The notes: a model not told the origin generated them from the sequence alone. A stretch of 64,000 nucleotides of DNA from Candidatus Parcubacteria bacterium (GCA_009995385.1 JAACPT010000002.1:759-64758); one strand, 5' to 3'. Numbered from the stretch's first letter, positions 21,001 to 31,287 are shown. Numbers and translations: made by a program.

Positions 21001-22543
21001 TATCCTCGTTTGTCTTTATAATCAGTGTCTCATTAGTGTTATCGTCCGTCACTGAGAAATTAATTTTTTCTCCGTTTGGAAGACGTAACTCATCGCCAGA
21101 GAGCACCCCGCTGGTAAATCCATCATCACTGAGAAGCGCCTGAAGGTCGGTTGGCAAAATTTCTGGAGCCTCAAGCGTAAAGAGTTCCAGCCAAGCACTT
21201 TCAACGTAGAGCGATTGTAGCGCCGATGGATCATTGTCATACCGTAGTTGCACCTGAAGCGCATCGAGTGACATCTGGTCAGCTACTTCTGGTAATGCAA
21301 AAAGATAGTACCCACCATTGATACTGTTTGATGCCTCATCATCAATAATGATTGCACCGGCTGATAACCAGGTAGCACCTTGATCAATTGAATAGAGAAT
21401 TGAAAACTCTGGAATCAAATCGCGAGTTGGCTTTACTTTGGCAGCAAAAGAAAGACGGAGCTGCGCACCAGAGACCTCTACTCCAGTATCGAGAGGATAC
21501 CCGAAATCTGACAAGGTGATGAAGTACGATCCACATTGATCAGTACAATCAGAAGCGATGGTATGAACTTGTTCATCAACCTCGTCAACAATTAAAGTGG
21601 CATCACTTATCGATGAAGTTGGAGTTGGTGATGTTATAAAATCAAACTCACTTTGTAGAGCAGGTTCAGCTACTTCACCCGATATTTCTGGCGTATCGTT
21701 TACTTCCATGACAGCAGCGTCTTCTGTTGGAGCAACCGGGATAGTGACCACTTCCTCCACCGTTTGGACGACTGGTTCACCAACTGATTCAATCAATAGT
21801 TCATTTGAACCAGAACTTATTTCATTATTTAAAACTTCATCGGTAGTGACCGTAGTATCAAACACTGCTGTAACGGCTGCCACCGCCAACGCAAACAGTG
21901 ACTCCGCATGGCGTAGCACAGTAGTTGTCGCTGTATCGATAGGATCACCTGCACCCTCTGCATCAATAAGTTCTTCACCTGACTGCAGAGATTCAATACG
22001 ATCAGTAGTCGTCGTCTGTGTTTCAGGTACCAAAATTAAATCTTCAGCTGTGGTATTTTCCGGTAGTCCAAAATCAACGCTATCATCCAAAACAGCCGGT
22101 GTAGCTGTAGCTGCCGGAATCAGTACTTCAGTAGAAAAAGCTGGCACCTCTTGACCACCAGAAATTTGTGGCTTGGTATAGGTTCGTTCACGCTCGAACT
22201 GTACTGCTTCACTAGTATTTAACGTTACGGCATTAATGCCATTAAACTCCTGAAGGAGCGCATACTCATCAAGATTTTGGAATGTAATAGTTTCAACATT
22301 ATTCCAACCAGTGGCTACAACAGCTGCTGGAAAGACGTGCGTTGTTCTGATGACATATGCATCCTTGAATAACTGCGCGTGCACGTATGGCAAGAGCACC
22401 GCTAGTAGTAAAACGAATGTCGTTATGACAGTTCCAAATTTTTTATTTTTTACACGACAAATAACACCTTTTACTAAAATCGGCGCATAAAATATAGGTT
22501 TTTTTAGTTTTTCTCCAATCTTTTGTACGTGTTTACTTATCAC
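1..22543 (-). CDS. Giant secreted/cell-surface protein, 5' part only (the gene continues past the left window edge; at least ~7,500 codons). It has repeated DUF2341-like and LamG (concanavalin-like) modules plus beta-helix-like repeats. The start codon is uncertain: no in-frame ATG was found, and a GTG at 22543 is the best candidate.
   Basis: Over 22 kb, every minus-strand ORF in the track lies in a single other frame (all end coordinates are 0 mod 3), and plus-strand ORFs never occur in frame 1. My hand translation of the remaining minus frame from ~22540 down to position 1 hit no stop. It read as protein throughout: signal peptide '...KNKKFGTVITTFVLLLAVLLPYVHAQ', then repeated motifs such as 'FPVYVDLS..FW..V.SDGRDIRVTT.DG.ELP.DLV.I...T.TGELHF...FY.YY.N' and 'DELRFAS..R...W...EY.N'. 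The codon phase at position 4 equals the phase at 22543. The ORF is presumably missing from the track because no stop falls inside the window. Confidence 0.75.
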   Translation of the reverse strand, partial: MISKHVQKIGEKLKKPIFYAPILVKGVICRVKNKKFGTVITTFVLLLAVLLPYVHAQLFKDAYVIRTTHVFPAAVVATGWNNVETITFQNLDEYALLQEFNGINAVTLNTSEAVQFERERTYTKPQISGGQEVPAFSTEVLIPAATATPAVLDDSVDFGLPENTTAEDLILVPETQTTTTDRIESLQSGEELIDAEGAGDPIDTATTTVLRHAESLFALAVAAVTAVFDTTVTTDEVLNNEISSGSNELLIESVGEPVVQTVEEVVTIPVAPTEDAAVMEVNDTPEISGEVAEPALQSEFDFITSPTPTSSISDATLIVDEVDEQVHTIASDCTDQCGSYFITLSDFGYPLDTGVEVSGAQLRLSFAAKVKPTRDLIPEFSILYSIDQGATWLSAGAIIIDDEASNSINGGYYLFALPEVADQMSLDALQVQLRYDNDPSALQSLYVESAWLELFTLEAPEILPTDLQALLSDDGFTSGVLSGDELRLPNGEKINFSVTDDNTNETLIIKTNEDTYQGLSEVATYFSVTNTASKAEEFSIQTYFPREVGEVVSLEMFNQNKPRTAVIPEYRPYVYHCEAGWEYVGEQLPESLDALSRQLAEDAVLAEASSRSVLPISSESTSTLEVTSEEIATTTALVFEEEAGIERVIESKEIIAVEDQIPAYSCRNTNVVRECDELDGANTACVMLDVKVAEHNMTRYEPGWEKIATAAGEQPRPGVLRKIAQFVGLGPDKKDVPAEFEVRAHTPGTYLIEPGETKYFKMDIAFPPFSNGEYWIEVIGNSEYGLLDPFWTSDWSYRMPITIDNTNGTTDLSEYQVFLEISSALTDFWNNVAADGSDIRFAQQVSTGNFSNAGTAQTNWFDPSFGGRVAITIPPLTVTEDQSNFPVYVDLSLFDAGFWAGVKSDGGDIRVTTSDGTELPIDLVEINTTAQTGELHFLASAIAAHAANTFYVYYDNTAASGYASSDPSGSQAVWTGAGYQAVYHFSDNPSTVGNVLTDETGYGHDLTVITAAPATTTGQMGTAYDFTAVSGYLASTTWTFPGGDPLVITGLYRMPVVSNSALWQWGTANQPDDMEFRPWYTGLNTAATGLHYFGATGGATYTLARATSTWSAFGTVGTTSISGNNLVFEDGVLIESVPQTVGNPTNTGAGGFSVARTGTNTWWNGQVDELRVALTTRTDERVRLETSNLSDPTHFYSIGDSQVPDNAANLTWYSTSWGKRLKFSIPQAKISANLTDFPVYIDLSMFGTEFFSAVKTDGRDIRITTGDGVTELPFELVSIDKGTNSGELYFKTNLNRNAANDFYIYYQNEDALPYSRTSTYGSNNVWTNNYLAVYHLEEDAVGTSNLNLYKDSTSNQYDGDDYNTSNSKVGLFGKGQEFGDDQNDYLILPREVLNGVSNLTTSWWHQTTIGGAQTIVSGAKDNTAAGSNEYIIYFSNTSNLQLFYQNAFESFGLSDTIGTHNTGSWNFFAVTGEDAIDEVNFYVNGVGDTENPDPQPIAPLSIANGGLIVGQEQDSLGGGFQNNQNFEGQLDELRFASVVRNKNWLAVEYANMNNVSSFVATSSAEDLAITDFVELDFWVQHFDNTSDQADIWVQVDSIPAGEETTIYMYYGSTGATSASDELATFSYSTSTDLYYVVDDSGATSISVQSLIDGNAVSIDGGTPVPLNQGERTTFATFTGSSIISTLGPISGTVTGNSTDSSDTLAPISFATTTFAVPLNRAADRWYIHAPFATTTVSTYIGNSGTASQTIVIPKNTASTSTTDPTDSGSGVDGNGIVVEATSPVLLMHRTTNPGDGIVAYPPTTRDLFGVDSNYFHLSATADNPDATVYCSVGTGGATTGTTRGEKDDITQCTTAAEGAGSAVRFTGAIQPISAVQMADGDGNEATVFWPQHEFGTRYFMTNDAAYAAVVCSPRFGDVALEVQDSAGNLVESATCSPVGNNPGKAYFNHGNGTNGDAINFTAGHQIVSTNGKPFYVIYEDVNVEQDEKNILGSVQARKFDGVTNRLIGFGAQESATIITYDDDLEQLSYRWYENTTLQTPTSSWPINASEDVEEGVAISGSGAVDDGDILRLRMNLAVTTATATVQSSAFTLQYAAAAGVGQCSSATSWHDLGEIGSTTALFRGYNNPTLEDGTTLSSTTLASSTVLASYEERNYSNLIPNEIGIGEVGEWDWVIEAVSVDINTTYCFRMVRATGHELTTYTTYPELITVGPPNTPSNLVYFDNEHTTDLTPVLEFVSIDLASDDIQYQVQVDDDPTFASVEIDRNSTAYPLNFENVTLPSDKAPFTSGNLIRFTAPTSVASSTTYWWRVRASDPLGSATASEWSLPTSFTTNQNLQTSEWFQTTGEQFTTNTLTNLTTTAGAVSASGVLGMMVSTPVDFDTAVVGNAWGEVDWSDTETVGEIRIQVEYKNGGSWQLIPNTLLPGNSTGVSIAPISLRELDTAVYNELRLVATFDGSTLSLQDWTIRWGLRVETPILGDLFDNQKTVETLPVFDFVSTDPQSDELEYEISFSTDKTFLTGSSTYNSSSSAGFANSGNGGDASPFTSGATVTYTTQVGSPFINTETYWWRVRAKDPNGDDSWSPWSNPDSFTVDTGLTVSTWFQTTKEQFEEGTLNGTIATTADAVVVNDKVGEFGKTTVTNGTWTTIDLQSIYNNPVVVASVRYTPLGDISRSARVRNKTATSFELLVTNSAGLATGSTVVDYLVVERGDWVLEDGSTGKRIVANTFSNVSDVVANPYPASGYGEDVTFSPAFAAAPAVVATISSDNDSTWAVVGLNDGNIRNNEPTASGMGIYLARGMQTAIHDPEDVDYIVMAPGHGTNNGSEFDADVSAIVHDEAPATAEAFFSPFSSAPEVVLVQQGSERGGQGGFAGLYAATIPTTNNYYPFIDEDVPADRAHTIERILAFAFENTSGVLKRYAASGLSGTVAGENIIFTDGAGPKYDNFSWNDSTPGVSDVYYQMEYEVSPGIYALIPNSIIPGNSIGTSVGPIDLTSVDINIYPVIRPVATLTCSGGNCPQINDWQLEWSEGVNMSGTLKEYDRLTAVATGTIRAAVNGTPVGGSATVAAGSWTLSNITAFSGDTVTVWVDGATESEEAVGVFVYDGTGDITGVELFEQHLSISADEEETVTNASLGLYDNLTSGDEDIFYNVDTFNNLVVCSVGACSDASIYIGPGNTYIPAAAGGTSVTTHDVINDGTIELDSNTVIVTGSWKNNATSSIDTATINFTAATGTESISSTESPLVFHTLSFGSGAGDAVFTLSAGLDLSGSLTVASGTLDRSGLAISLAGNLTTGTGGFWLGLGTTSFDGAGAKTWRDDNLITQKVGDVLIDGASTNVTALTNVGAYDIRIGTNDRLNGTSGKTIYVAGDWENNGIFSAQSGTVELIHDDRTYPPTVPGSQDWYADSNFTSRLMIETNPVEIPGVLTNFPVYIDLSTLGNDFWNSVHSDGRDIRITSGDGQTELPYDLVAIDAVTKTGELHFLTNSVDSATSTYFFIYFNNATATAYYPTDTYGSQAVWSQYEAVYHFVDDPTAVDSYVYDATTNGNHLLVEVAGLATSTGQLGQSINLIGSTGILRNAGFTWTAGNPLVTSGWYKMPAASNESLWQWGTAASPNSIEFRPWYQTTNGLHYFGVTANATYAQSPRDTTNWLHFTTIGATTTGQDNLVYQNSIEVERVTQTVANPYNNGATGLQVGREGTGGSLQAQIDELRISTVLRTSDWVEAEYSNQKTPTVFYATSSVQSYTPDVVIDEASHRIDAGGSPFYNLIFNDATTSPAFTEPSVTITNDLTIATGTVAFPTGVLTIGGSLTNNGYFMHNNGQVTFNSTAAETIELHGTEFYNGLYNVVFNGSGSWTFADSNATTSNNITINNGTVVFPTGVLAVGGFLDVNAGGFNANAGTIHFTSVESESISTKGSSFNTVIFGNDDPAFGWYNSAWGERMVIKVASTSVAGMVTDFPVYLDLSTMGNSFWAKVAVDGRDIRMTSSDGKTELPIDLVDISVGLKTGELHFLAPSLSPVVDTTFYVYFDNAAAEAPATDSVYGANAVWTEYEAVYHFNGDPTTGVPDMSGNGRNLSPLVGTPVSTVGLVGDALDLTGGNVMVGNSGWTWTAGEDLVSSGLYYQSAVDDGALWEFGTVCGANNGTCLAFLPWYTRTTGYHRFGVTTADTYTFSRNGTIWHHFTTNGRATAGQANQIFEDSILRGSVLQTVPAQNPTNTGLQLGRYTAGTYMNIKIDELRFASTTRSQQWITTEYRNLTAVKSFYSTSTQSYLEVVPSYTLDEATTVATGDVKIYYANLVAPSSNFSIGGSAFNSNGSYNPNNATTTFNSTDVGETVAFGDGAFYNLSFNGVGGGWTIATTTVLNDATLITGADFTLAPGTMLTVAGIFRNSFNEAATTWDDSILVLSGGDYTVTNRLDFGDDYATLVVSNDSDLVMWNSSVSTSTIRDTSSLYMPDFNGVNGTLRIYGAYERTSGTEYWSRDTDFDGTSLVGGGERTVSVEIGRGASIYLATSTTLVAKGAAGATTTVAAISGIYSLTVNAGTLNTEYASFTDMGPKGLSLTNGTTVNTLTAVEFGVAGGRSGITVDAATVNTQPSSEFTNIVFATTTANGIYEPAWSDQIVLTIDADAVNEDLVNYPVYVNLSHLGTAFWNGVQSDGRDIRVTTDGGVELPIDLVEINTTTKTGELYFLASAISNTANTVFYIHFNNPAAAAYGATNQYGRQAVWANYEAVYHFNENPTISITDMTGNGHNLFPTSGTPATTTGLVGTALDTTAANNVKLENLTWTWTPGDDLVSSGLYRMANFDTSALWQFGDGSGSDNGTYLSFMPWYNNTTRGYFRFGMTSGTDYSFTRNAASWHHFTTIGRATAGEVSEIYEDNILRDSVTQLLSAQNPTNTGLRIGAYQTTTYGDMDIDELRFSVTPPSANRIDAEYRNFTDATSFYATSSAETFSYNVTTDGVPATFWLFSGGTGNLYGEEHDNDDGNPGSIQWDDSNFSVTISGTVYNDDGVTPATYPVCNGSTEVVTVVLDGMTTYTASCNPLDGSFSVSGISYTGEPQIVTYLNSEAATPQTNVQIYDEITGTGTVAGVVMTVNRPSVVDGSVLVLIAGKDDDPLITAPVGWTAINTLGNTTGDQIDTGIWYRVVTDAGTEPTTYNFTADNGEGFSFWMGALINVDTVTPIDVASTWTKVQNQFEPTAPSITTVTNGALVLSAWYTYLDTQVVAPVYNWFDRANNIVNPESGNLTVSSRSMLTAGATGDVSLSGVIATRESHVGQFAFRPSTGPTGSSSMVAAAVTKTPIGNSGSPYNTIALRDQKNAYGTVAAAAAIDINRPAVENGDVLVAILGKEDDFIVTPPGGWTQGDDLIQSVGNAMYTGVWYHVVTNAGSEPVSYSFISNDDGVEEFSYWIGSFSGVDATNVFDVTPVWSNLQNVSSPTAPSINTVTPGAYVLASWYVIDDNAMDMPASPWLTLAQDVMINNRLLAVSGRTMVSAGATSDATMTNGSVDDVNVGQFALRPAAVSVADTISDMDLYQNRVIVRHENVDALTIADMVVFDHDNDSDLPFTAATGVPDLLSVQSGSGLVIWNDKTFTTGGAVALLGAGSTPADGSLLLKQSSILQAHSSDDITIGGSLYLETGATFSGSASTVDFTATNPGQSIGAAASSTITLYDVSFTGVGGNWAIQTPLISETGILVATGTVSGVANVTINDGSFSGNGTVDFTGGTTLLKKTNTLGGMRPWTFNNLTLGSGAVAGITTPASTATTSVRGTLTIAAAHFLAAGNSLWDLQGNGNVFVETGTFIEDMSTIRFSGTTPNIKQTPYYNVVIDTDRGGTVTATAPTTGLQILNNLTIGVLGTSTLNANTNDPTFSVGNNVLIGSLGTLEASNNKTLTVNGNWENDGIFNANGGTVTFSKVGGSATITAGDSPFAVLNVLGSAAYTVTENATSTGNLTITTGSFTLNPGLTLAVGGAFSNTMTDDSTTWTDTTLSFYSGTAFVMNTKTTSDTYDTIVTASGTHPRLWNSTTTVVTTNGVSSLYSMNHRDVTGELYIFGDYVNEGYSDYWSYATDFDGASLGVPRQASVYIEAGGTAQYPSGSLYIIGTSSASTTIAAQTSGTYELTIGGDTEVEMSNYVVRDTTSAGLIFTGAPHILNLSHGDLEVAIADGSTMTVGGSVITANPALNFTDIRMATTTAINAYNVTATGTSASAWRFVNVQGNLGGEAKDVDPAGDPGYLTWEDSAAIINISGAVYSDEGVTASAACDGTTKNVWLSIQGLTFASTTCAVGTGAYSFVGVGYGVGNTLTVYIKGESEKAVTVTQDPVSSISGLDLYENRVILTHESSAPMTIADMSTWDSDNDADILFNTETAGTNTLVLPANTKLIVWNNKKFTPGGNVTVSGGGAGTDYDGTLELRAGATFTAANGQVHSIGGSLLTGTGAVFTPAQSTVTFTTTGTARTIDSNNAGFYNLSFTGAGSWTVADPALLVVGDYIQSAGSVTLPSATTTIGGTFDITGGSFVANSGLLYFTATDVGNVVRFNGSDTATVRFNGTGGSWIIADTNATTTNSFTVSAGTVTLPTGTLTVGDNFIVQGSVVHAGGSVNLIGTGGGNLFTLKGNTLNNLKIIAGTGDYTMTDAGAAFLGDLFLQSGQLTVGTGTVSVGGSFDVSGGTFISSNGTLLFNSANTGEFIDTGTNDLYDVVFGSVNGGWTIVDNATTTNNFSLAAASSFTMSSGTRLYIGGVFTNNVGGTATNWNGTQVVLGSGTEYEVSGKAVATERYNILEVGTNTDISMWNSSATTTIVASSGSLYSQDHNAVNGSLYIFGDYHIATTTEHWSYATDFDGAALGGSPRAASVAIAGGSTVTVDGGTLHMLGSANSTSTVSNQGTGIYTFTASAGIFDAEYYRFRNLDADGLQILGTATIGSLSLGDFEQASDSATLITLVSTALNTNASLVVTNTRFATGGFVAGTNISLDATTTNSWLITGASGNLWGESYDVDGTDDCSSIRWDDSQCLLTEQATYRWRNDDGGEGAAPGTWFDSNWAARKRVRVVNEDATTYTDVAVKVEVAYDTDMQTDFDDVRFTDASGTTTLSYWREQYTTATAAQFWVKVPTMNADTVTELYLYYGNNTATTTSEISDVFNAYDDFDDNNLTEYSGDTAKFGTTGTFAYGGGYGLYASPNPNDKTTDGIGRTDFTISQGEIIRYMQYVDTTVGSADEVCTLFAVQSPVTANQNYGVCLEQFGTDRVSLVENVQNTDSTGTVLASSSISLVTGWYEIEIDWQTNNSIDVAVFDATGSLAATTSATDSTYTSGGFGFTFWGQNGGWDSYISWPRTATQPVVYLGAEQLQGGASWAAAQNTPTGGFLFDETARLRIGIENTGLPITNQNFRLEFAPKLAAPSCEAVTSGSFTAVPNLASCGTSAICMTTSANVTTGSPTTDHLLTAAGAFVPGQIVADTSNQSTAINVDQNKYIELEYVIKLTTNAVNDAYCFRVTDGGSTLDSYAKLPELTLAFDPTVGPISFNNG

Positions 22544-22596
22544 TTTTCTGCATAGTAGCCTCACTTCAGAGATGAAGTGGACTGTATATAAGTATA

Positions 22597-22623
22597 CCGC
22601 CCAACTACAGTGTAGTTGGGCGG
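22597..22623 (-). terminator. Perfect 13-bp inverted repeat (ccgcccaactaca g tgtagttgggcgg) between the stop of the cohesin-like gene and the start of the giant gene. It is a putative intrinsic terminator or attenuator.
   Basis: Read directly from the sequence. On the minus strand it is followed by the AT-rich stretch 'tatacttatatac'. Confidence 0.4.
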
Positions 22624-22656
22624 TTATCCTCATATTTTATTAGGTTTTTCTTAAAT

Positions 22657-24195
22657 CTACTTCAATACTGCTTTTACATCATTAATCTCTTTCTCTATCA
22701 AGGTCTCAGAAACTTCTAGTGCCTGCGTCAAGGCTTCAACTGCTTCTTTTTCCTTAGTTGATAGTCGTTTGCGTTTGGTAATCAAATTTATTTGGTCGTA
22801 GATTTCGTCACGCAACGCCGAAAAGATTTTTTCCATCTGATCTTGTACCTCACGAGTTTCTCGACGAAGTTTTTCTTCTCGCTCTTTCAAAGTTTTATGT
22901 TCGTACCAGAAGTAAATAATTTGAAGCAAAATGATTACCAAAAGAAGGAATACGAATAAATTGATTGGAGTAAAGAAATCCCAGATCGAACCTTCATCTA
23001 CTACCACCACTGGTTTTACCCAGCCGGCAGTAATCAGTACAGCCACACTACTCTCTCGCTTGTTACCAGCCATATCAACAGCTACTACTTTGACAGTGTA
23101 CGTGCCATTTTCGAGTTCTTTAAGGAGGTACCCCAATCTTGCTTCATCAGGACTGACTCGTAGTGGTTCTTTATCCGCCACGGTCATTTCGTAATAATCA
23201 ATACCTGACGTAACGTCATTAGCTTCAAAGCGAAGTAGTGGGAATGAGTCTGGAGAAGTACCTGCTTGCACATTAATAGCGTATGGTTCAGGTGGCGTTG
23301 TATCGATCTTGAGTTTACGGTTGGTCACTGCTCCCCAACCTACCTGATTCTTAAAGTTCACACTGACGTACTGAATACCATCTGTGACGTTGCTTTTTGA
23401 AATTACGAATTCTTCCACTGGCGGATCTATCACTGCCCCCTCGCTATCCTGGGGTTTATTTTCTGGATTGGTAGTCAGCTCAACTGCCACTACATTCACA
23501 TCAAACGGTAGTGTCCAAGAAAAGATACCTTCTGTTTTGTTATACCAAGTTTCTGGATCGAGGAATGTCTGTGAACCAACCTCTGGAGACCGTGGTGGAT
23601 CACCATAGATGATTGCTTGCTGACCGTCATCAGCTGTCGGTTCTTTTGGTGTTACTGTCGGAGTGGTATCTGACGGTGGCGGAGTAGTTGGTGTAGTAGC
23701 GGCTCCAACAGTGTACGAGCCAGGAGTGGCGTTTTTGAAAACATCAGTACCGCGTCCGTCAGCAGCAAGAATAGATGAGTTAGAAAAAGTCACTGAACCA
23801 GTCCCCTCGGTAATTGCTCGGAAGGTGATAGAAATTAGATTTGAAGGAGTCGTAAAAGGAGTGGGACTACCTCCACCAAATGTGATAGTACCAGCAGTGT
23901 TAGAAAAAGCTGGTTCTGTAGTCCATAAGGAAAAAGCCGAGCCTGTCTTACTGATACTAACAACCGAAAGCACCGTTGGATTAAACTTGAGTGTTGATTC
24001 TACCGCATTAATACTGTCAGTATTGGGAACTGCACGCAAGGTAACAGTAAAGGTCTGCCCAGCAGTATATGATCCAGTACTTGGCGCAAGTGAGAGGTCA
24101 GCAGCAAAGGTCGTACCAATGAGTAACAAAAAAAACATTGCTGTAGCAAACAACAGTTTTGTGATTTGGGCGTAGTGTCTAGTAAGGTACAACAT
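22657..24195 (-). CDS. Membrane-anchored cohesin-like domain protein with a signal peptide, cohesin-like and Ig-like domains, a TM helix and a C-terminal cytoplasmic coiled coil.
   Basis: Track ORF 22657..24204; an ATG at 24195 gives 'MLYLTRHYAQITKLLFATAMFFLLLIG'. The cohesin-like pattern is 'L.L.P.....GQTFTVTL......INAVESTLKFNPTVLSV.SI...........T.....NTAGTITFGGG.......LISITFRAI.EGTGSVTF'. The TM helix is 'FVFLLLVIILLQIIYFWY', followed by a charged coiled-coil tail. Confidence 0.6.
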   Translation of the reverse strand: MLYLTRHYAQITKLLFATAMFFLLLIGTTFAADLSLAPSTGSYTAGQTFTVTLRAVPNTDSINAVESTLKFNPTVLSVVSISKTGSAFSLWTTEPAFSNTAGTITFGGGSPTPFTTPSNLISITFRAITEGTGSVTFSNSSILAADGRGTDVFKNATPGSYTVGAATTPTTPPPSDTTPTVTPKEPTADDGQQAIIYGDPPRSPEVGSQTFLDPETWYNKTEGIFSWTLPFDVNVVAVELTTNPENKPQDSEGAVIDPPVEEFVISKSNVTDGIQYVSVNFKNQVGWGAVTNRKLKIDTTPPEPYAINVQAGTSPDSFPLLRFEANDVTSGIDYYEMTVADKEPLRVSPDEARLGYLLKELENGTYTVKVVAVDMAGNKRESSVAVLITAGWVKPVVVVDEGSIWDFFTPINLFVFLLLVIILLQIIYFWYEHKTLKEREEKLRRETREVQDQMEKIFSALRDEIYDQINLITKRKRLSTKEKEAVEALTQALEVSETLIEKEINDVKAVLK

Positions 24196-24215
24196 AAGGA
24201 ACAAAAACTTAAGCG

Positions 24216-24695
24216 TTAATTCGTGCGTTTGGGTAAGCCGCGACCACCAGTAACTTTTAGTTGCACTTTTTCTTTTTCACTTGGTTTTAAGAGTGGTAAA
24301 ATGAGTATCAGTACACCATTCTTTATCTTTGCTTCCGCTTGATCGATATTAACACTTTCTGGCAAAATGATGCGACGATAGAAATCTCCCCAAATACATT
24401 CCTCGGCAACATACGAACCCTTCACATTTTTTTTTGGGAACACAATGTATTCAGGGCGTATGCGCTTCCCTTCTATCAAGACAATATCGGCATCACCCTC
24501 AATTGAGACGTGAACATCATTCATATCGGCACCTGCTGACTGAGCATACACCACGATCATACGCTCGGTTTGATACACATCAACATGAAGTTGCGCTACC
24601 TTGTCAACTGCCGTTTCTTCAGCATCAGACAACAGCGACGCATCTTCGTTGCGTACCCCTTTACCTTTTAATCTCTGCAGAAAGGACATATACAA
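24216..24695 (-). CDS. Hsp20/alpha-crystallin family small heat-shock protein.
   Basis: Alpha-crystallin domain signature 'GDFYRRIILPESVNIDQAEAKIKNGVLILILP'. Confidence 0.85.
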   Translation of the reverse strand: MYMSFLQRLKGKGVRNEDASLLSDAEETAVDKVAQLHVDVYQTERMIVVYAQSAGADMNDVHVSIEGDADIVLIEGKRIRPEYIVFPKKNVKGSYVAEECIWGDFYRRIILPESVNIDQAEAKIKNGVLILILPLLKPSEKEKVQLKVTGGRGLPKRTN

Positions 24696-24991: not shown

Positions 24992-26896
24992 TTATCCCGT
25001 CCAGGCAAAGAGCATAATCGAGAAGTCAGTCAGACTGACCTTACTATCACGATTAATGTCGGCAGGTGGGTCGGAATCACCACCGTTACTATTCCACCAG
25101 AATAACAAAATCGAGAAGTCAATGAGGTTTACCTTACCATCACGGTTGAGGTCAGCATTAATTGGCACCTCGGCTGTTTTGCCAACACCGTAAAAAGTGT
25201 ACTCTGACCAGTTGGTCGTCGCGCCACCTTCTTGCGCAGACTTGGCGCGGATTTGATAGGTACCGACAGAAAAACTAGCAGTATCAACAGTGGTTGTCCA
25301 AAGTCCAGAAGCATTAGAAGTCACCGATATATCTTTCATGATAGTGGAGCGAAGTTTACCGTTTTGTAGTGATACAGTGGCGTTGGGAAGCGCGTATCCC
25401 GAAGCAGTCAGTGTTTCTCCAGGATTAACTGGATTGGGAGTAACTAGAATAGATGGTGCAACATTCACATTACTGAGCGCCGAAGTACGAGCACCAGTGA
25501 CCGTAAAGGAAGTACTAAAAGTCGAAGATTTGATACCATTAGGTCCAGTAGCATACACTCCAAAGGTGTACACCCCGCGCGCAATCTGATCAAGAGTAAT
25601 AGAGTAAGCCCCCGCAGCGGTAGCTTTGGTGGTATTTAAAAACTTCCCGTCTACCAAAATGCTTACCGTACTATTTGGATAGGCATACCCGGAAATCACT
25701 ACTCGCCCATCACCACTACGGTATGGCGCATCAGTAGATTCAAATCCACCACCCGCAGTGCTACCAGAACCTCCGCCCGAGCCACCGCCACCGCCACCGC
25801 CCGAGCCACCAGTACCAGAAGAACCTCCTTCCAGTGGTTGTTCCCCACTCGATTGTCCTGTCGTGCCACCTGAACCAGAGCCGTCACCGGTTCCGTCATT
25901 GCCTGACCCACTACCATCACCACTCACATCACCATCGGTATTGGCGGTACCAGTCGGAATATCATTCACCGAGAACTCAATAAGAAAGTCATCGGTATTC
26001 ATATTGCCTTCATCGTCAATACACCGCACAAAGAATCTCTGCAAACTATTTGGTACGACTGCCACAATAGTAGAGTGAAAAATGTAACCAGTATTAGAAA
26101 AAGTAGACGACATAGAAGCATACGGGGTGCCAGACTCCGTATCAAACCGACAATTCGAAAGTTCGTCAGTTTCTAGTGATATTTCTACACTGAGAGTAGT
26201 ACCACCAACGGTACTCGTTGGAGCAGGGTTAAATCGAAACGGCGGTACCGTCTCTCTCGTATCTACTCCTGGGAAGTTTACTTTCTCATTTAAGAAAATT
26301 ACAAAATTTGCGTTTGCCACTACGCCACCATCGTAGATTTCAACTTTTACTTTATGTACTCCAGTTGAAATGGCGTTCATAATTGGCTCAATATCACCAG
26401 GGGTCGTGGTCGTACCAGTAGATGTACTGAAGGTAGTGACAGGCAAAAACGCATTAGTAGTGTGGTTACCGATACGGAACTGCAAATGACTACCCGCAGT
26501 AAGCGTAAAATCTGGCGCCAGTGTATACCGAATAAAACCGGGTGTACCGGTAGTGAATTCAACCTGATCAATCCCTGATGCGGCTACTGCTGCGGCATCA
26601 CGAGGAAAACCATTTACCCACAACTGCACATTTCTTTCTGCAAACGTAGAAGTCGCGAGAAGAGTAAATTGGTCTGGTAAGGTAATCTCGATACTCCCAC
26701 CCGGAGAGACTGTCGTACCGACAGTAAATTCAAGGGTGTGATTTGAGTACTCACTCGGTCCTGAGTCGCTCAAGACATCTCGATACTCAGTAATATTAAG
26801 CGCTTCGACGAACTGTGGAAACAGTAAAAGTAGCCCCACTATCAATGCGATAGTGAGCGGTAGAAAAATCGACCACGATTTCTGGACGCTGAACAT
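24992..26896 (-). CDS. Secreted protein with an N-terminal signal peptide, a Gly/Ser-rich linker, Ig-like domains and a C-terminal type-I dockerin module.
   Basis: Duplicated calcium-binding dockerin segments 'DLNRDGKVNLIDFSILLFWW' and 'DINRDSKVSLTDFSIMLFAW' lie at the C-terminus. The signal peptide is 'MFSVQKSWSIFLPLTIALIVGLLLLF'. Confidence 0.7.
   Translation of the reverse strand: MFSVQKSWSIFLPLTIALIVGLLLLFPQFVEALNITEYRDVLSDSGPSEYSNHTLEFTVGTTVSPGGSIEITLPDQFTLLATSTFAERNVQLWVNGFPRDAAAVAASGIDQVEFTTGTPGFIRYTLAPDFTLTAGSHLQFRIGNHTTNAFLPVTTFSTSTGTTTTPGDIEPIMNAISTGVHKVKVEIYDGGVVANANFVIFLNEKVNFPGVDTRETVPPFRFNPAPTSTVGGTTLSVEISLETDELSNCRFDTESGTPYASMSSTFSNTGYIFHSTIVAVVPNSLQRFFVRCIDDEGNMNTDDFLIEFSVNDIPTGTANTDGDVSGDGSGSGNDGTGDGSGSGGTTGQSSGEQPLEGGSSGTGGSGGGGGGGSGGGSGSTAGGGFESTDAPYRSGDGRVVISGYAYPNSTVSILVDGKFLNTTKATAAGAYSITLDQIARGVYTFGVYATGPNGIKSSTFSTSFTVTGARTSALSNVNVAPSILVTPNPVNPGETLTASGYALPNATVSLQNGKLRSTIMKDISVTSNASGLWTTTVDTASFSVGTYQIRAKSAQEGGATTNWSEYTFYGVGKTAEVPINADLNRDGKVNLIDFSILLFWWNSNGGDSDPPADINRDSKVSLTDFSIMLFAWTG
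25756..25935. repeat. GGN/GCC-rich simple-sequence tract encoding the Gly/Ser/Asp linker of the dockerin protein.
   Basis: ccaccgccaccgccaccgcc... on the plus strand; the translation is 'GDGSGSGNDGTGDGSGSGGTTG...SGGGGGGGSGGGSGS'. Confidence 0.5.
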
Positions 26897-26951
26897 AGAT
26901 ACTCACTCATTGTACCCTACAGAAGCACATAATCTTTGCGCATTACACAGG

Positions 26952-27371
26952 TCAGGCATTGCGCAATTCACGTAGGCGAAGATAATCAAGGGTGTAATTG
27001 AGCAATATCAATATAAGAAGAATAAAGAGAACGCTCGATAAGATATACGTGGCGGTACTAGAATCACCCATTCCCGTAGAGAGCTCGACTGTTATCTCGC
27101 GTTCCCGCAATGCTGCCTCACGAGCAGCGAGTTCACGTTCCTTTTTAGTCAACTCGGCAGTAATTTGATTGAGTTCGTTTGGTTGTACTGCCGCACTCAT
27201 ACCAATGACATTGGCTAGGTAAAGGTGCGTCTGCTTGGAAATATCTTTAGTAGATTCACGAACTAATCCACTTTCAAAAGCCAAGACTAGTGCACAGAGG
27301 AGCGCGGCAGTACGTAGAAAACGATGGTAGTTACTGTCTTGTTGCAAATGCATACTCATATAGTGTACCAC
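26952..27371 (-). CDS. Small membrane protein with a coiled-coil segment (hypothetical).
   Basis: ORF with an N-terminal hydrophobic segment, the coiled-coil stretch 'ELTKKERELAAREAALREREI' and a C-terminal TM helix. Its ATGA start/stop overlaps the upstream gene at 27371. Confidence 0.5.
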   Translation of the reverse strand: MVHYMSMHLQQDSNYHRFLRTAALLCALVLAFESGLVRESTKDISKQTHLYLANVIGMSAAVQPNELNQITAELTKKERELAAREAALREREITVELSTGMGDSSTATYILSSVLFILLILILLNYTLDYLRLRELRNA

Positions 27372-28465
27372 TACGCAAAGAGTGCGAGCAGTACAATCAA
27401 CGATAAAGCAATGACTGTAAGTGTTACCACCAGTACCAGTAGTACTGCCGAGGAATTGCTTCTGCTACGGCGATGGACAATTCGTCTACCCTGATTTAGA
27501 TGTGCGAGTGAGCGGCGAATGTACAATCGAACAAAAATAAAGATGACAAGTAGTAGTACCCCCAGCGCGACGAGTGCTGGTCCGATGATGTTCATCGGGA
27601 GAATCCAAAACGTGACTGAACTCGACATGGTCTTCTTCGCACCACTCTCGCCGTATACCGGACTGAGTATCGCTTCATAGCGCCCAAACCCAATTGAGTC
27701 ACCAGTCCAAACAATGTTCTTGAATTCACGAGTGTCGTTAGGGAAGACTGAGAAACGTTCTTCGTTAAACATCAAATCCCCTACCTTATTGCCAAGCATA
27801 TTGTAAATTTCAAGCGGACCCATTGGACGTACGAGGACATTACCATTATTTTCGATACGAACATCAAACTCCACGTTCTGTGAACCATGCAAGAATTTGG
27901 AGGTAGAAAACTGGCGAATACTAGCTTCCTCTACAATATCTCCATTTACTCGAATACTGAGCACACTCGCGACCTGATATCCAACCGCTGCACCAGAATT
28001 TTCAATCTTTGGTGGGTCAACGGAAATAAACACTCCACCAAAGTGACTACCTGGCGAAGCATTCATTGGGACAGTCAACGTCATGTCAACAGATGATTGA
28101 CCTTTAGCTGGAATAGTAATTTCACTGTATGGAAGAACGATCCAATCTGCCAGCTCGTATCCCGTCTGCTCAAAGTTATCGGAAGCAAAGATTGGTACTC
28201 CCCCTTCTTTCACACCAGAAATATTTCTGGTGAAAAGATAGTATGTTTGTTCAGCAGCATTTAGATTTTCAATACTCAGCGAATATTGCTTGGTAACCCC
28301 AGGATCAAGCGTCTCTTCAAGCATCGCTGGTTTGATACTCACCCCTACTTGCTGCGCAAAAGCGAGCACCGGAAAAGAAAGCCAAAATGTAGAAACTATG
28401 AATAGTGACAAAAAGAAATGTTCAACAATAGCCCGTAGCATACGAGAGGAATAAGTCGAATTCAT
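27371..28465 (-). CDS. DUF916/DUF3324 cell-surface protein (CscA-like), with a signal peptide and a C-terminal TM anchor.
   Basis: N-terminal signal, then 'VGVSIKPAMLEETLDPGVTKQYSLSIENLN...GSHFGGVFISV' (DUF916-like). This is followed by '...VEFDVRIENNGNVLVRP.GPLEIYNMLGNKVGDL...' (DUF3324-like). The C-terminal TM segment is 'IIGPALVALGVLLLVIFIFVRLYIRR'. Confidence 0.55.
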   Translation of the reverse strand: MNSTYSSRMLRAIVEHFFLSLFIVSTFWLSFPVLAFAQQVGVSIKPAMLEETLDPGVTKQYSLSIENLNAAEQTYYLFTRNISGVKEGGVPIFASDNFEQTGYELADWIVLPYSEITIPAKGQSSVDMTLTVPMNASPGSHFGGVFISVDPPKIENSGAAVGYQVASVLSIRVNGDIVEEASIRQFSTSKFLHGSQNVEFDVRIENNGNVLVRPMGPLEIYNMLGNKVGDLMFNEERFSVFPNDTREFKNIVWTGDSIGFGRYEAILSPVYGESGAKKTMSSSVTFWILPMNIIGPALVALGVLLLVIFIFVRLYIRRSLAHLNQGRRIVHRRSRSNSSAVLLVLVVTLTVIALSLIVLLALFA

Positions 28466-28525
28466 AATATAAACCTATCTTAATAATCTTCATATCATAC
28501 CATCGACCAATTCTTCATTTAGGTG

Positions 28526-28574
28526 ACTTATGTACAACAAAAACCTCCCAGGGAGGTTTTTGTTGTACATAAGT
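28526..28574. terminator. Perfect 24-bp-arm palindrome (acttatgtacaacaaaaacctccc a gggaggtttttgttgtacataagt). It is a putative bidirectional intrinsic terminator after the WxL-like gene, or a protein-binding site.
   Basis: Read directly from the sequence; it lies 10 nt downstream of the 28585 stop. Confidence 0.5.
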
Positions 28575-28584
28575 GTGTAGGAAT

Positions 28585-29685
28585 TTAGAAGGTCGGAGTA
28601 GCGATATATGTCAACGTTGTGTTGTAGTCATCAGCTGCTTCCTGAAGTGGAGTGATTTCGATTTGGTATCCGATATCAGTCTGTCCTACGTCATCACCAG
28701 TGGAATCAACGGTAAAGGTCGTACCATCTGATGGACCATTGTGAGCCATCACTACACGTGGAGTCGTACTAGCCGACACCCAAGTATTAGCGGCAGTAAA
28801 GTCTGTTGCCCCTTGCAGGTTTCCGTCTTCTGTGGTGAGACCCCAGTGACCGTACGTATTCTCATCAAGGAGAGAATTTGAAGGATTTGCCCAGGCGGCT
28901 GGAGTGTCGTCATAGGCACCGTCTGCAAAGCCATCAATGTCTGCTCCTGTCGATGATTGAAGATTTCCATCTTGCTCAACAGTCACTACAAAACCATTTT
29001 TAGCATTCGTCGTTACGTTAAGTCTTTGTGCCAACGTCTTGATCTGACCAGCGGTAAGGACTCCGAATGGAATTTCTGTTGGCGTGGTTGAACCGGTAGT
29101 CGAAGTACCATTGATGGCAGTTGAAGTAGCCAGACCAGTGATAGTGAAGTTGAAAGTTGTTTCAACGACAGCGGTCACGAGGACATTATCAATGATGGCG
29201 ACACGAGTCTTACCTGTGTCAGTTGGAGTAACTACGGCGATTTCGTATGAACCAGTGGTTCCAGGATTGGTAATCTTTCCGTCTGCGATCGCGACTACTA
29301 CTTCTTCTGTGGCGTTAGCGGTGGTGTCGAGTGAAAGAGTAAGCACCTCCCCAACAGCGGTCAATGAGTCTTGCGCTGCGGCTCCTCCGTTAACGGTTAC
29401 TGTTATGTCCCCGCCTGTCACAGTGTTTACTCCAGTAAAGCCAGCAGGGAACGTGATAGTGAAAGTGCTGGCAGCACCAAGAGTTGAAGCGGTTGGAATA
29501 GTAAAAGCGATGGTATGCCCTGAGGTGACGCTAAGGTCAGAGTCAGAGAGTGTATCACTAATGAGTGTGAGGTTAGCTGCTTGCGCAGTGGTATAGAGGC
29601 CGATTGACCAAAGTACCATTGCACTTGCAACAAGTGTCGCGACCACCCGTTGCGCAAAGCCAACGTGAGTTGCTTTTGCGAACAT
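28585..29685 (-). CDS. Secreted beta-rich surface protein, WxL-like (CscB/C-like); the assignment is tentative.
   Basis: Signal peptide 'VVATLVASAMVLWSIGLYTTAQA', Thr/Val-rich beta segments and a 'GHWGL' motif. It sits next to a DUF916/DUF3324 gene, as in Firmicutes csc clusters. Confidence 0.4.
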   Translation of the reverse strand: MFAKATHVGFAQRVVATLVASAMVLWSIGLYTTAQAANLTLISDTLSDSDLSVTSGHTIAFTIPTASTLGAASTFTITFPAGFTGVNTVTGGDITVTVNGGAAAQDSLTAVGEVLTLSLDTTANATEEVVVAIADGKITNPGTTGSYEIAVVTPTDTGKTRVAIIDNVLVTAVVETTFNFTITGLATSTAINGTSTTGSTTPTEIPFGVLTAGQIKTLAQRLNVTTNAKNGFVVTVEQDGNLQSSTGADIDGFADGAYDDTPAAWANPSNSLLDENTYGHWGLTTEDGNLQGATDFTAANTWVSASTTPRVVMAHNGPSDGTTFTVDSTGDDVGQTDIGYQIEITPLQEAADDYNTTLTYIATPTF

Positions 29686-29989
29686 ATTATATGAATATTA
29701 TTTTAAATAACTTTCTTCTACGTTGTACCAACGAGAAGGTTTCGATGGCAGCTTTTGTGGAGAAGATACTTGTTCCAAATTATTTGAGAAAATCTCAGCC
29801 TGTTATGGAACAGTGTATCACTGCTATCGAACTACCATTAGTATACAAAGTCTTTTTGAAATCGTCTTATGCTCACTGTTGATAACCGTAATCTCATGAC
29901 CTTTGTACTTTTTTTGTAGCTATATTTTGAGCCAATTTATGCTTACAGACTGGAAAATACCGATTGATTGGGTAAAGAACACGTGTCGA

Positions 29990-31246: not shown

Positions 31247-31264
31247 GCTAATAGTATAGCAAAA

Positions 31265-31287
31265 CGGCGCGCCCGTAGGGCGCGCCG
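31265..31287 (-). terminator. GC-rich hairpin (cggcgcgccc gta gggcgcgccg) followed by TTTT on the minus strand. It is an intrinsic terminator after the GH18 gene.
   Basis: Read directly from the sequence. Confidence 0.6.

What the first reader, a model, noticed from the sequence alone, without database searches (positions are those of the whole stretch)
26952..29685. Csc-like cell-surface complex genes (DUF916/DUF3324 CscA-like plus WxL-like protein) upstream of the cohesin/dockerin pair
Gene 27371..28465 has the hallmarks of a CscA protein: a signal peptide, DUF916 and DUF3324 segments, and a C-terminal TM anchor with a basic tail. The neighbouring 28585..29685 protein is Thr/Val-rich and beta-rich with a GHWGL motif. 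A small TM/coiled-coil gene overlaps at ATGA (27371). Csc/WxL clusters are described mainly in Lactobacillales, where they bind peptidoglycan non-covalently. Finding the arrangement here, feeding into a ~30-kb co-directional surface island (29685 down to 1, all on the minus strand), is notable.
Basis: partly seen in the sequence, partly recalled or inferred. Interest (0 to 1): 0.55.

Follow-up and report, generated by a model that had tools for sequence, protein, structure and literature searches.

The report
WxLIP-like surface anchor pair in Kaiserbacteria
In an ultra-small uncultured (Kaiserbacteria/CPR) bacterium, a membrane-anchored relative of the Gram-positive "WxL-interacting" surface protein is always encoded next to a probably abundant secreted protein of a new family, which gives a testable candidate for how these bacteria build their outer surface.

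Summary
The three ORFs exist as described, on the minus strand of a Candidatus Kaiserbacteria (Patescibacteria) contig.

**Gene 27371-28465 (364 aa)** is a remote but real homologue of CscA/WxLIP.
- Pfam DUF916 is below threshold here (24 bits against 27.3), but all 57 relatives match it.
- A profile-profile comparison with true WxLIPs gives 96% probability across both Ig domains.
- The best structural match of the AF2 model is the solved E. faecium WxLIP (9i25/9i1y).
- It differs in three ways: no Pfam DUF3324 hit, no NQIDKxxxYFDLK motif, and two C-terminal membrane helices instead of one.

**Gene 28585-29685 (366 aa)** is not a demonstrable WxL protein.
- None of 61 relatives hits Pfam WxL. 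hhalign probability is at most 2%, and jackhmmer never reaches WxL proteins.
- The Trp of "GHWGL" is not conserved in the wider family.
- It belongs to a new CPR family made of a BslA/YcnI-like N-domain and a pilin/TLP-1-like C-domain.
- It occupies the same gene position as the small WxL gene.

**The pair**
- It is adjacent in about 65 Paceibacteria genomes and in seven deeply divergent CPR loci.
- A conserved terminator hairpin follows the 366-aa gene.

**Verdict:** a new variant of the WxL/Csc surface-anchor system with a non-WxL partner. The mechanism is inferred, not shown.

The parts
29686..29989 (-). AT-rich 304-nt intergenic region upstream of the 366-aa gene. It holds one sigma-70-like match at 29806..29779. 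This is the presumed promoter region of the partner gene.
   Evidence: The promoter match is a consensus match only.
28585..29685 (-). Partner protein 'p366', 366 aa. Sec signal peptide 1-36 (AQA|A). The mature protein is 33.7 kDa, pI 4.05, Cys-free and 19% Thr. It founds a new CPR protein family with 1724 representatives at 50% identity and E<=1e-3.
   Evidence: No Pfam or NCBIfam family.
29185..29577 (-). p366 N-domain (aa 37-167): an Ig-like sandwich with pLDDT about 95. It resembles YcnI, YweA and BslA. His57 is invariant. The same domain starts the dockerin protein at 24992-26896.
28588..29184 (-). p366 C-domain (aa 168-366): a beta domain with conserved motifs IPFG, TNAxNGFxVTV, TYGHxG and LQEAxxDYxxTLTYIATPTF. 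This is the module that travels with DUF916-like genes across the CPR.
28526..28574 (-). Perfect 23-bp hairpin (A-run / GC core / U-run) that starts 11 nt after the p366 stop codon. It is an intrinsic terminator or attenuator between the partner and anchor genes.
   Evidence: Region folds at -39.3 kcal/mol, z -4.9. An equivalent hairpin with a different sequence follows the p366 homologue in essentially all of about 65 loci.
27371..28465 (-). Anchor protein 'p364', 364 aa: a WxLIP/CscA-like protein with a signal peptide, two Ig-like domains and a two-helix membrane hairpin.
27947..28342 (-). p364 domain 1 (aa 42-173), DUF916/PGBD-like. It contains two nearly invariant loops with lower model confidence (about 80-108 and 149-166). 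These are candidate partner-binding strands.
   Evidence: PF06030 matches residues 53-147. Conservation list. pLDDT dips to 68-73 and 56. The analogy is to the WxLIP hairpin that completes the WxL sandwich (PMC10599100).
27602..27925 (-). p364 domain 2 (aa 181-288): an Ig-like domain in the position of DUF3324/HBD.
   Evidence: No PF11797 hit. The hhalign alignment with true WxLIPs runs to residue 266, and Foldseek aligns 266 columns of 9i25_C.
27374..27595 (-). p364 membrane hairpin: helix 291-325, basic loop RRSLAHLNQGRRIVHRRSRSNSS, helix 338-363. True WxLIPs have one helix followed by a short basic tail.
   Evidence: C-termini of seven real WxLIPs.
26952..27359 (-). Small membrane protein 'p139', 135 aa from the ATG at 27359. 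It has an N-terminal hydrophobic segment (14-33), a heptad-rich Glu/Arg/Ala segment (about 60-95) and a C-terminal TM (99-129). It always follows the anchor gene.
   Evidence: No Pfam family.
24992..26896 (-). 634-aa secreted protein: p366-type N-domain, Gly-rich linker, Big_6-like Ig domain, and a C-terminal dockerin.
   Evidence: Dockerin_1 at E 8.9e-8, 32.7 bits (cut-off 22.9). N-domain.
24216..24695 (-). HSP20 small heat-shock protein. It is cytoplasmic, lies between the dockerin and cohesin genes, and keeps that position in about 55 genomes.
22657..24204 (-). 515-aa protein with an N-terminal cohesin, Ig/Fn3-like domains, a TM helix (about 405-436) and a C-terminal coiled coil. It is the likely membrane receptor for the dockerin protein.
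   Evidence: Cohesin at 31.9 bits (cut-off 24.1). TM segment.
2..22636 (-). Giant surface-protein gene of more than 7545 codons that runs off the left edge of the window. It carries DUF2341 twice plus LamG/pentaxin-like domains.

Best explanation
This is a surface-display module inherited vertically across the Paceibacteria. Its anchor is a distant homologue of the Firmicutes WxLIP/CscA protein. Its cargo belongs to a different, CPR-specific protein family.

**Proposed mechanism**
1. p366 is transcribed from its own upstream region and largely terminated at the conserved hairpin. It should therefore be made in excess over the downstream genes.
2. p366 is exported by Sec as an acidic, Thr-rich, Cys-free protein with two beta domains.
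3. p364 is exported and held in the cytoplasmic membrane by a two-helix hairpin. Its two Ig-like domains face outward.
4. By analogy with WxLIP-WxL (PDB 9i25; PMC10599100), one of p364's invariant but poorly ordered loops adds a beta-strand to the C-domain of p366 and tethers it to the cell.
5. The N-domain of p366, which is BslA/YcnI-like, is the displayed functional part. The same N-domain is displayed a second way, on the dockerin protein (24992-26896), which the membrane cohesin protein (22657-24204) would hold.
6. p139 is a membrane coiled-coil accessory of the anchor.

**Shown:** homology of the anchor, the new partner family, conservation of the pair, the conserved terminator, and the shared N-domain.

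**Inferred:** physical binding, the strand-insertion mode, the expression ratio, and the biological role (cell coat or attachment).
For: **The anchor is WxLIP-like**
- 57/57 family members match PF06030.
- The PDB profile search hits EfmWxLIP1.
- hhalign gives 96% probability and E 2.8e-9 over both domains against seven true DUF916+DUF3324 proteins.
- The AF2 model (pLDDT 85) has 9i25_C and 9i1y as its top Foldseek hits, followed by PapD/Caf1M/CfaA strand-donating chaperones.

**The pair is functionally linked**
- The order dinB, p366, p364, p139 is kept in about 65 genomes at identities down to roughly 40%.
- In seven much more distant CPR loci with different surroundings, DUF916-like genes (E 1e-31 to 1e-90) are still flanked by proteins carrying the p366 C-domain. 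HMM E-values are 1e-7 to 1e-71 in six loci; the seventh, L075/L079-type, is joined by jackhmmer.
- N-terminally extended relatives of 673 and 1022 aa keep the module at their C-terminus and are followed by a DUF916-like gene.

**Gene order matches real WxL loci:** partner first, then anchor, on the same strand.

**Terminator:** a hairpin follows p366 in the window and in essentially all related loci, with different sequences.

**Shared N-domain:** it also occurs in the dockerin protein. The pattern of two N-domains, one C-domain and one anchor holds in 55 of 71 loci.
Against: - No direct evidence of binding.
- The partner is not detectably a WxL domain, so the WxLIP-WxL binding mode may not transfer.
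- The WxLIP hallmark motif NQIDKxxxYFDLK is deleted in p364 (alignment, against PMC10599100).
- Gene order in these reduced genomes is conserved far beyond this pair: dinB, GH18 and HSP20 are syntenic too. Within close relatives, adjacency is therefore weak evidence. The distant loci carry most of the weight.
- TM-scores to 9i25_C are modest (0.36/0.47).
Confidence: 0.55

Rival explanations
1. The module assembles a fibre or pilus. p366-type proteins would polymerise by donor-strand exchange, as in TasA, TLP-1 or chaperone-usher pili. p364 would then act as a membrane-tethered PapD-like chaperone or assembly platform rather than a static anchor.
For: - After WxLIP, the next best folds for p364 are strand-donating pilus chaperones (CfaA, Caf1M, PapD, CsuC) at E 1e-8 to 1e-10.
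- A major-subunit gene followed by a terminator is typical of pilin operons.
- Distant loci carry two or three partner paralogues of different size, like major, minor and tip subunits.
- The C-terminal GxYxxxhThxh strand resembles the last strand of pilins (own knowledge).
Against: - The AF2 monomer of p366 folds confidently, with its N-terminal strand inside the N-domain and no evident free donor strand.
- The window has a single C-domain protein.
- No usher or polymerase candidate was identified. The sortase at 34379-35029 has no LPXTG substrate in the window.
Confidence: 0.2
2. This is a true, highly diverged Csc/WxL cluster. On this reading the p366 C-domain is a WxL domain whose tryptophans have been replaced (NGF-V-V for GW-x-L, and LTY-I-A for LTW-x-L). 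It would bind peptidoglycan non-covalently, as in Lactobacillales.
For: - Three motifs line up in the same order in a low-stringency hhalign alignment of 149 columns: F-G, then xVxT(N/D)xxxG(F/Y/W)xVxV, then YxxxLT(Y/W)xhxxxP.
- Annotated WxL proteins from the Bacillus and Pediococcus plasmid loci (L084, L085, L082; the Pediococcus one not re-scanned against Pfam here) also carry Y in place of W: 'LTYSIVTGP' and 'TGYTVTV'.
- hhalign picks the same GW/GF region as its top local match in every run.
- The gene order is identical, and the domain is C-terminal in long relatives.
Against: - All statistics are insignificant: hhalign probability 0.3-2.2% and P 0.02-0.18, against 0.08 and 0.39 for unrelated controls.
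- HMM scores are about 3-8 bits.
- PF13731 hits none of 61 close relatives and none of 10 distant ones.
- The PDB profile search at E<=10 finds nothing, including the WxL chain of 9i25.
- No WxL chain is in the top 50 to 60 structural matches.
- The final-strand motif is common to many Ig-like surface proteins (own knowledge).
Confidence: 0.2
3. There is no functional coupling. On this reading p364 is just one of many Ig-domain membrane proteins, p366 is an unrelated secreted protein, and the two are neighbours only because gene order is frozen in these small genomes.
For: Unrelated neighbours (IMS polymerase, GH18, HSP20) are equally syntenic across the same genomes. A strong terminator separates the two genes.
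Against: The pair recurs in loci at 24-37% identity with otherwise different neighbours and a different order and number of copies. It also recurs beside N-terminally extended partners on unrelated contigs.
Confidence: 0.05

Closest known systems
WxLIP / CscA (DUF916 + DUF3324 + TM) of Firmicutes WxL/Csc clusters. Examples: E. faecium EfmWxLIP1 (PDB 9i1y, 9i25) and L. plantarum CscA.
   Same: - Size is similar: 364 aa against 337-365.
- Both have a signal peptide, two tandem Ig-like domains in the same order, and a C-terminal membrane segment.
- Homology is detectable, and WxLIP is the best structural match.
- Both are encoded immediately downstream of a smaller secreted beta-protein.
   Different: - The phylum is Patescibacteria rather than Bacillota.
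- This sequence is below the Pfam threshold for DUF916, and there is no Pfam DUF3324 hit.
- The conserved NQIDKxxxYFDLK motif is absent.
- It has two C-terminal TM helices with a basic loop rather than one helix with a basic tail.
- The neighbouring partner is not a Pfam WxL protein.
Small and large WxL proteins (PF13731; CscB/CscC, SwpA/LwpA)
   Same: - Secreted, beta-rich and acidic.
- The gene sits directly upstream of the DUF916 gene.
- The conserved module is C-terminal, with variable N-terminal additions in longer relatives.
- Short motifs line up in the same order.
   Different: - No significant sequence or profile similarity.
- The tryptophans are not conserved.
- p366 has an extra BslA/YcnI-like N-domain.
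- Only one such gene lies next to the anchor here, where the published cluster definition requires two WxL proteins (PMC10599100).
Chaperone-usher pilus chaperones (PapD, Caf1M, CfaA, CsuC)
   Same: Two-Ig-domain architecture. These are the next best Foldseek matches to p364, at E 1e-8 to 1e-10 and TMt about 0.5. They are a precedent for completing a partner's sandwich by donating a strand.
   Different: They are soluble periplasmic proteins of diderms that work with an outer-membrane usher. p364 is membrane-anchored in a probable monoderm, and no usher is present. No sequence similarity was shown.
TLP-1a/b freshwater fibrils (CryoSeek; PDB 9ikk) and TasA-type donor-strand fibres
   Different: Identity is only 12%. 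No free N-terminal donor strand is evident in the p366 model. The best sequence relatives of TLP-1 were reported from a Flavobacteriales MAG (PMC11494351).
BslA/YweA hydrophobin-like and YcnI/DUF1775 Ig domains
   Different: All sequence hits are below threshold. No hydrophobic cap or copper site was examined.

Membership tests
WxLIP / CscA protein | N-terminal DUF916 (PF06030, PGBD) domain | tested here: met
   This sequence scores E 4.4e-5 and 24.0 bits, below the 27.3 cut-off. All 57 relatives match, best 3.2e-9, and many pass the threshold in the precomputed Pfam column. The PDB EfmWxLIP1 hit is 6e-5.
WxLIP / CscA protein | Second domain DUF3324 (PF11797, HBD) directly after DUF916 | tested here: inconclusive
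   PF11797 hits none of 57 members. However, hhalign with seven true DUF916+DUF3324 proteins aligns through residue 266 (96% probability). Foldseek aligns 266 columns of 9i25_C across both domains.
WxLIP / CscA protein | Single C-terminal transmembrane helix | tested here: inconclusive
   A TM helix follows domain 2. It is then followed by a basic loop and a second hydrophobic helix, 338-363, which is conserved in the family. The seven real WxLIPs examined end shortly after one helix.
WxLIP / CscA protein | Conserved NQIDKxxxYFDLK motif near the start of PGBD (PMC10599100) | tested here: not met
   hhalign places an 11-residue gap in p364 opposite the template's NQi....YF.L segment. p364 reads GVSIKPAMLEETLDPG at that point.
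WxL / Csc gene cluster | At least one WxLIP plus two WxL-domain (PF13731) proteins within four genes (PMC10599100) | tested here: not met
   No PF13731 hit for p366, for 61 relatives, or for 10 partner proteins from distant loci. None of the other five cluster proteins scanned has one either.
WxL / Csc gene cluster | Two conserved Trp-x-Leu motifs in a C-terminal domain of the partner | tested here: not met
   The only WxL string, W281-G-L, is not conserved in the wider family. The positions that align with WxL motifs carry F-V-V and Y-I-A.
WxL / Csc gene cluster | Small LPXTG protein (CscD); described as common but not essential (PMC9772566) | tested here: not met
   No LPXTG-type sorting signal in any ORF of 60 aa or more in the window. 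A sortase gene lies at 34379-35029.
WxL / Csc gene cluster | Partner gene immediately upstream of the DUF916 gene on the same strand | tested here: met
   Six of the seven Firmicutes plasmid loci examined show WxL directly followed by DUF916; the seventh, L080, has the WxL gene about 4.7 kb upstream. The window and about 65 relatives show p366 followed by p364.
WxL / Csc gene cluster | Physical binding of the partner by strand insertion from the DUF916 domain | not testable with these tools
The only indirect support is two invariant loops with low pLDDT in domain 1.
Cohesin-dockerin pair (neighbouring genes) | Dockerin_1 and Cohesin domains above Pfam thresholds in adjacent secreted proteins | tested here: met
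   Dockerin scores 32.7 bits (cut-off 22.9) in 24992-26896. Cohesin scores 31.9 bits (cut-off 24.1) in 22657-24204.
Chaperone-usher / donor-strand pili | Subunit that lacks its last strand plus a free N-terminal donor strand; an usher or equivalent polymerase | tested here: inconclusive
   Fold resemblance only. The monomer model shows no obvious free donor strand. No usher-like gene was seen among the Pfam hits.

The most novel reading that the evidence does not exclude
The 366-aa family would be the major, self-assembling surface component of Paceibacteria, either a coat or a fibre. It would be held or assembled by a WxLIP-like membrane protein through beta-strand complementation. If so, the WxL/WxLIP system of Gram-positive pathogens and commensals would be one branch of a much older and wider monoderm 'strand-donating anchor' system. 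That system is structurally akin to the chaperone-usher chaperones, and its CPR branch uses a different cargo fold. Some unassigned environmental fibrils of the TLP type could then come from such systems.
Probability: 0.3. Interest if true: 0.75.

Novelty: new variant of a known kind. Interest (0 to 1): 0.55.

Why it matters
CPR/Patescibacteria are mostly uncultured, tiny bacteria that attach to host cells. Their surface architecture is largely unknown, and most of their conserved surface genes are annotated as hypothetical.

- **A concrete, testable hypothesis.** This module is present at the same place in dozens of Paceibacteria genomes, with deeper relatives in Uhrbacteria-type and other lineages. 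It suggests a membrane anchor related to a protein with a solved structure (WxLIP), a probably abundant cargo of a new family, and a second display route through cohesin-dockerin that uses the same N-domain.
- **A wider range for WxLIP.** The literature I could search describes WxLIP only in Firmicutes; none of the 24 papers that mention DUF916, PF06030 or DUF3324 concerns the CPR. This finding extends it to another phylum and shows that the anchor can be paired with a non-WxL partner.
- **A bearing on WxLIP function.** That pairing is relevant to how WxLIP itself works, and to whether its role is host binding or general surface anchoring.

Tried and rejected
- **Family scans on p366:** Pfam and NCBIfam found nothing. 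A Pfam scan of 61 relatives gave only scattered weak hits to DUF1775, BslA and DUF2808.
- **PDB sequence-profile search with the p366 family:** zero hits even at E<=10.
- **hhalign of the p366 family against real WxL profiles:** I tried several versions (61 close relatives, 132 representatives, the C-domain only, and with 14 distant CPR partners added). The WxL profiles were Enterococcus-type, Bacillus/Pediococcus-type, and mixed. All were insignificant, and comparable to controls using the p364 family and the p366 N-domain.
- **WxL HMMs against all fetched CPR proteins, and jackhmmer from four CPR partners:** the CPR partners merge into one superfamily, but WxL proteins are never reached.
- **Fold search against afdb50:** this would have named WxL models, but the library was unavailable.
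- **LPXTG search:** negative.
- **Rfam scan of 24000-31000:** only sub-threshold miRNA-model matches to the terminator hairpin, which are chance.
- **Simple terminator scan:** it missed the 23-bp hairpin because of its own stem and tail rules. Folding found it.
- **Ideas rejected:**
  - GHWGL as a WxL motif, because it is not conserved.
  - An ATGA overlap at 27371, because the sequence there is TAGTG.


Full report
**What is there**

The window comes from a Candidatus Kaiserbacteria (Patescibacteria/CPR) genome. Both focal proteins have 100%-identical database entries named GW937_00755 and GW937_00760.

The three ORFs in the finding exist on the minus strand:
- 28585-29685, 366 aa, called p366 here;
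- 27371-28465, 364 aa, called p364;
- 26952-27371, 139 aa with the mechanical GTG start, called p139.

Downstream on the same strand lie four more genes:
- a dockerin protein (24992-26896);
- an HSP20 (24216-24695);
- a cohesin protein with a TM helix (22657-24204);
- a stop-free frame of more than 7545 codons (2-22636) that leaves the window.

Upstream lie an IMS/UmuC-type polymerase, a GH18 hydrolase, an S24 (UmuD/LexA-like) peptidase, a CAP-domain protein and a sortase.

**The anchor, p364**

On its own, the sequence matches Pfam DUF916 (PF06030, now WxLIP_PGBD) below the curated threshold: E 4.4e-5 and 24.0 bits against 27.3. It has no DUF3324 hit.

The family settles the matter.
- All 57 aligned relatives (58-72% identical) match PF06030, with a best E-value of 3.2e-9.
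- The family profile finds the solved E. faecium EfmWxLIP1 chains (9i25_C, 9i1y_A) at about 6e-5 in the PDB sequence library.
- I fetched seven bona fide DUF916+DUF3324 proteins from Enterococcus, Pediococcus, Bacillus and Pontibacillus plasmids. Two were re-scanned: PF06030 at 1e-34 to 1e-39 and PF11797 at 1e-31 to 1e-38. A profile-profile comparison with them gives 96% probability and E 2.8e-9 over 224 columns. The alignment covers residues 33-266, meaning both domains.
- The AF2 model has mean pLDDT 85. It shows a signal peptide, two Ig-like sandwiches (42-173 and 181-288) and two long C-terminal helices.
- Its best Foldseek PDB matches are the WxLIP structures: 9i25_C, 'WxLIP ... bound to long WxL', at E 1.2e-12 over 266 columns. 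The two-domain chaperones of chaperone-usher pili come next.

Four differences from canonical WxLIP stand out.
- The Pfam DUF3324 model never fires.
- The conserved NQIDKxxxYFDLK motif described for PGBD (PMC10599100) falls in an alignment gap.
The second helix is conserved in the family. The seven real WxLIPs end after one helix.
- Two stretches of domain 1 (about 80-108 and 149-166) are nearly invariant, yet they are the least confident parts of the ectodomain model. In WxLIP, a loop that is disordered in the free protein becomes a strand that completes the WxL sandwich (PMC10599100). I take these loops as candidates for the same role. That is an inference.

**The partner, p366**

It has a Sec signal peptide (AQA|A). 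The mature protein is 33.7 kDa, pI 4.05, Cys-free and 19% Thr. The AF2 model has mean pLDDT 84 and two beta domains.

p366 does not test as a WxL protein.
- No Pfam or NCBIfam family matches it.
- None of 61 relatives matches PF13731 at E<=1.
- The family profile finds nothing in the PDB sequence library at E<=10.
- No WxL chain appears in the structural lists shown.

I then built real WxL profiles. One came from 16 Enterococcus-type proteins. Others came from plasmid-borne WxL genes of Pediococcus, B. thuringiensis, B. cereus, B. anthracis and Pontibacillus.
- hhalign probabilities were 0.3-2.2%, with P 0.02-0.18.
- Unrelated controls gave P 0.08 and 0.39.
- jackhmmer started from CPR partners never reached WxL proteins.

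The 'GHWGL' motif is real (residues 279-283). However, its Trp is invariant only among close relatives and variable in the wider family, whose consensus is TYGHxGxTS.

What remains is a resemblance. In a low-stringency alignment, three motifs line up in the same order:
- F-G;
- xVxT(N/D)xxxG(F/Y/W)xVxV;
- YxxxLT(Y/W)xhxxxP.

Some annotated WxL proteins from the plasmid loci also carry Tyr where Trp is expected. The last motif is also typical of the final strand of many pilin-like sandwiches (my own knowledge). I therefore treat all this as a lead, not a test.

**Evidence that the pair belongs together**

- Among 79 related genomic loci, about 65 keep the order polymerase, p366, p364, p139. Most then continue, after a variable insert, with the dockerin protein, HSP20, the cohesin protein and the giant gene. 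Because unrelated genes are syntenic too, this alone is weak evidence.
- The stronger evidence comes from seven much more distant loci (L069, L072, L074, L075, L077, L078, L079). They include Uhrbacteria- and Nomurabacteria-labelled contigs with 24-37% identity to p364. Their DUF916-like genes score E 1e-31 to 1e-90 against the p364 HMM.
- Those DUF916-like genes are flanked by one to three secreted proteins that carry the p366 C-domain. The HMM E-values are 1e-7 to 1e-71, and jackhmmer joins all of them into one superfamily. The surroundings, copy numbers and order differ.
- Two N-terminally extended relatives, of 1022 and 673 aa, keep the N+C module at their C-terminus. Each is followed by a DUF916-like gene, at E 1e-85 and 1e-112.
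- In six of the seven Firmicutes plasmid loci examined, a WxL gene sits immediately upstream of the DUF916 gene on the same strand, which is the same arrangement; in the seventh (L080) the WxL gene lies about 4.7 kb upstream.

**Regulatory anatomy**

A perfect 23-bp hairpin, with an A-run, a GC core and a U-run, starts 11 nt after the p366 stop codon (28526-28574). The region folds at -39.3 kcal/mol with z = -4.9.

An equivalent hairpin with a different sequence follows the p366 homologue in essentially every related locus. This is what one expects for an abundant structural gene whose downstream accessory genes are made in smaller amounts. The expression ratio itself is inferred.

The junction with the small gene reads TAGTG, not ATGA. 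The alignment of homologues favours the ATG at 27359 as the start.

p139 has two hydrophobic segments that bracket a heptad-rich Glu/Arg/Ala segment. It follows the anchor gene in nearly all loci that extend that far.

**A link to the neighbouring cohesin-dockerin pair**

The p366 N-domain recurs at the N-terminus of the dockerin protein, at E 1.5e-16. In 55 of 71 loci the pattern is two N-domain proteins, one C-domain protein and one anchor.

The same module therefore seems to be displayed in two ways. One route is through the WxLIP-like anchor. The other is through a dockerin bound to a membrane cohesin. The function of the N-domain is unknown. Its fold relatives include a biofilm hydrophobin (BslA) and a copper-binding protein (YcnI).

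**Interpretation**

- **Best explanation (confidence 0.55):** a CPR surface-display module. The anchor is a diverged WxLIP homologue and tethers an abundant cargo of a new family, probably by strand complementation.
- **Fibre-assembly rival (0.2):** p364 acts as a PapD-like chaperone or platform.
- **Divergent-homology rival (0.2):** p366 is a true, highly diverged WxL domain, which would make this a real Csc/WxL cluster.
- **No-coupling rival (0.05).**

The published cluster definition (one WxLIP plus two WxL proteins; PMC10599100) is not met. No LPXTG CscD-like gene is present.

**Novelty**

Databases already label a few relatives 'DUF916 domain-containing protein [Candidatus Kaiserbacteria / Nomurabacteria]'. 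The presence of the domain is therefore on record.

However, none of the 24 searchable papers that mention DUF916, PF06030 or DUF3324 concerns the CPR. No paper combines DUF916 with Patescibacteria. The partner family is annotated only as hypothetical.

I rate this a new variant of a known kind. It is of moderate to good interest because it offers a concrete, testable model for part of the CPR cell surface.

Noticed in passing
window 2-22636 (-): A single stop-free frame of more than 7545 codons that runs off the left edge of the window. Pfam finds DUF2341 twice, plus LamG/pentaxin, Ig_Rha78A_N and DUF4861-like pieces. Its start region is conserved downstream of the cohesin gene in many related genomes.
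   Followed up: partly
window 34379-35029 (-): A sortase gene (PF04203, E 7.9e-21) lies 4.7 kb upstream of the pair. No ORF in the window carries an LPXTG-type sorting signal. Its substrate may be the C-terminus of the giant protein, which lies outside the window.
   Followed up: partly
window 29990-33037 (-): An S24 peptidase (UmuD/LexA-like, 32531-33037) and an IMS/UmuC-type polymerase with a DUF4113 tail (29990-31246) are separated by a secreted GH18 hydrolase gene (31301-32500). This three-gene arrangement is also syntenic in many related genomes.
   Followed up: no
window 24216-24695 (-): A cytoplasmic HSP20 gene sits between the dockerin and cohesin genes. It keeps that position in about 55 related genomes at 66-92% identity, which makes it the best conserved gene of the block.
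   Followed up: no
loci L021-L066, between the p139 and dockerin-protein homologues: Many relatives carry a variable insert of 1-6 kb between the small membrane gene and the dockerin protein. The window and its closest relatives lack this insert. I did not examine its content beyond noting that it holds no extra p366 or DUF916 domains in the loci I inspected.
   Followed up: partly
L072 (DATIHE010000008.1, 5.2 kb): A contig labelled 'Candidatus Nanoarchaeia archaeon' carries a CPR-type cluster: two p366-C-domain proteins followed by a DUF916-like protein. This is either a binning error or a transfer into DPANN archaea.
   Followed up: no
L084 and L085 (B. cereus plasmid; B. anthracis pXO1): In the Bacillus plasmids, the unit of small WxL, DUF916 and (in L084) a large WxL lies directly after CpaF/VirB11-type ATPase genes and several 67-aa genes, inside a conjugation or Tad-like region. 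This hints that WxL/WxLIP may serve a pilus or mating-pair apparatus there.
   Followed up: no
L075, L077, L078, L079 partner proteins: The shorter CPR partner proteins begin with a doubled motif after the signal peptide: SS(A/T)NY.I..DS(I/V)N.GG....SS.(N/S)Y...(D/S)T.G(E/Q). p366 lacks this motif, and I could not assign it to any family.
   Followed up: no
window 35597-37106 (-): A sigma-70/ECF-like protein (36522-37106, judged from its sequence and not scanned) lies next to a multi-pass membrane protein with no Pfam hit (35597-36511), just upstream of the sortase. This may be a sigma/anti-sigma pair that controls envelope genes.
   Followed up: no
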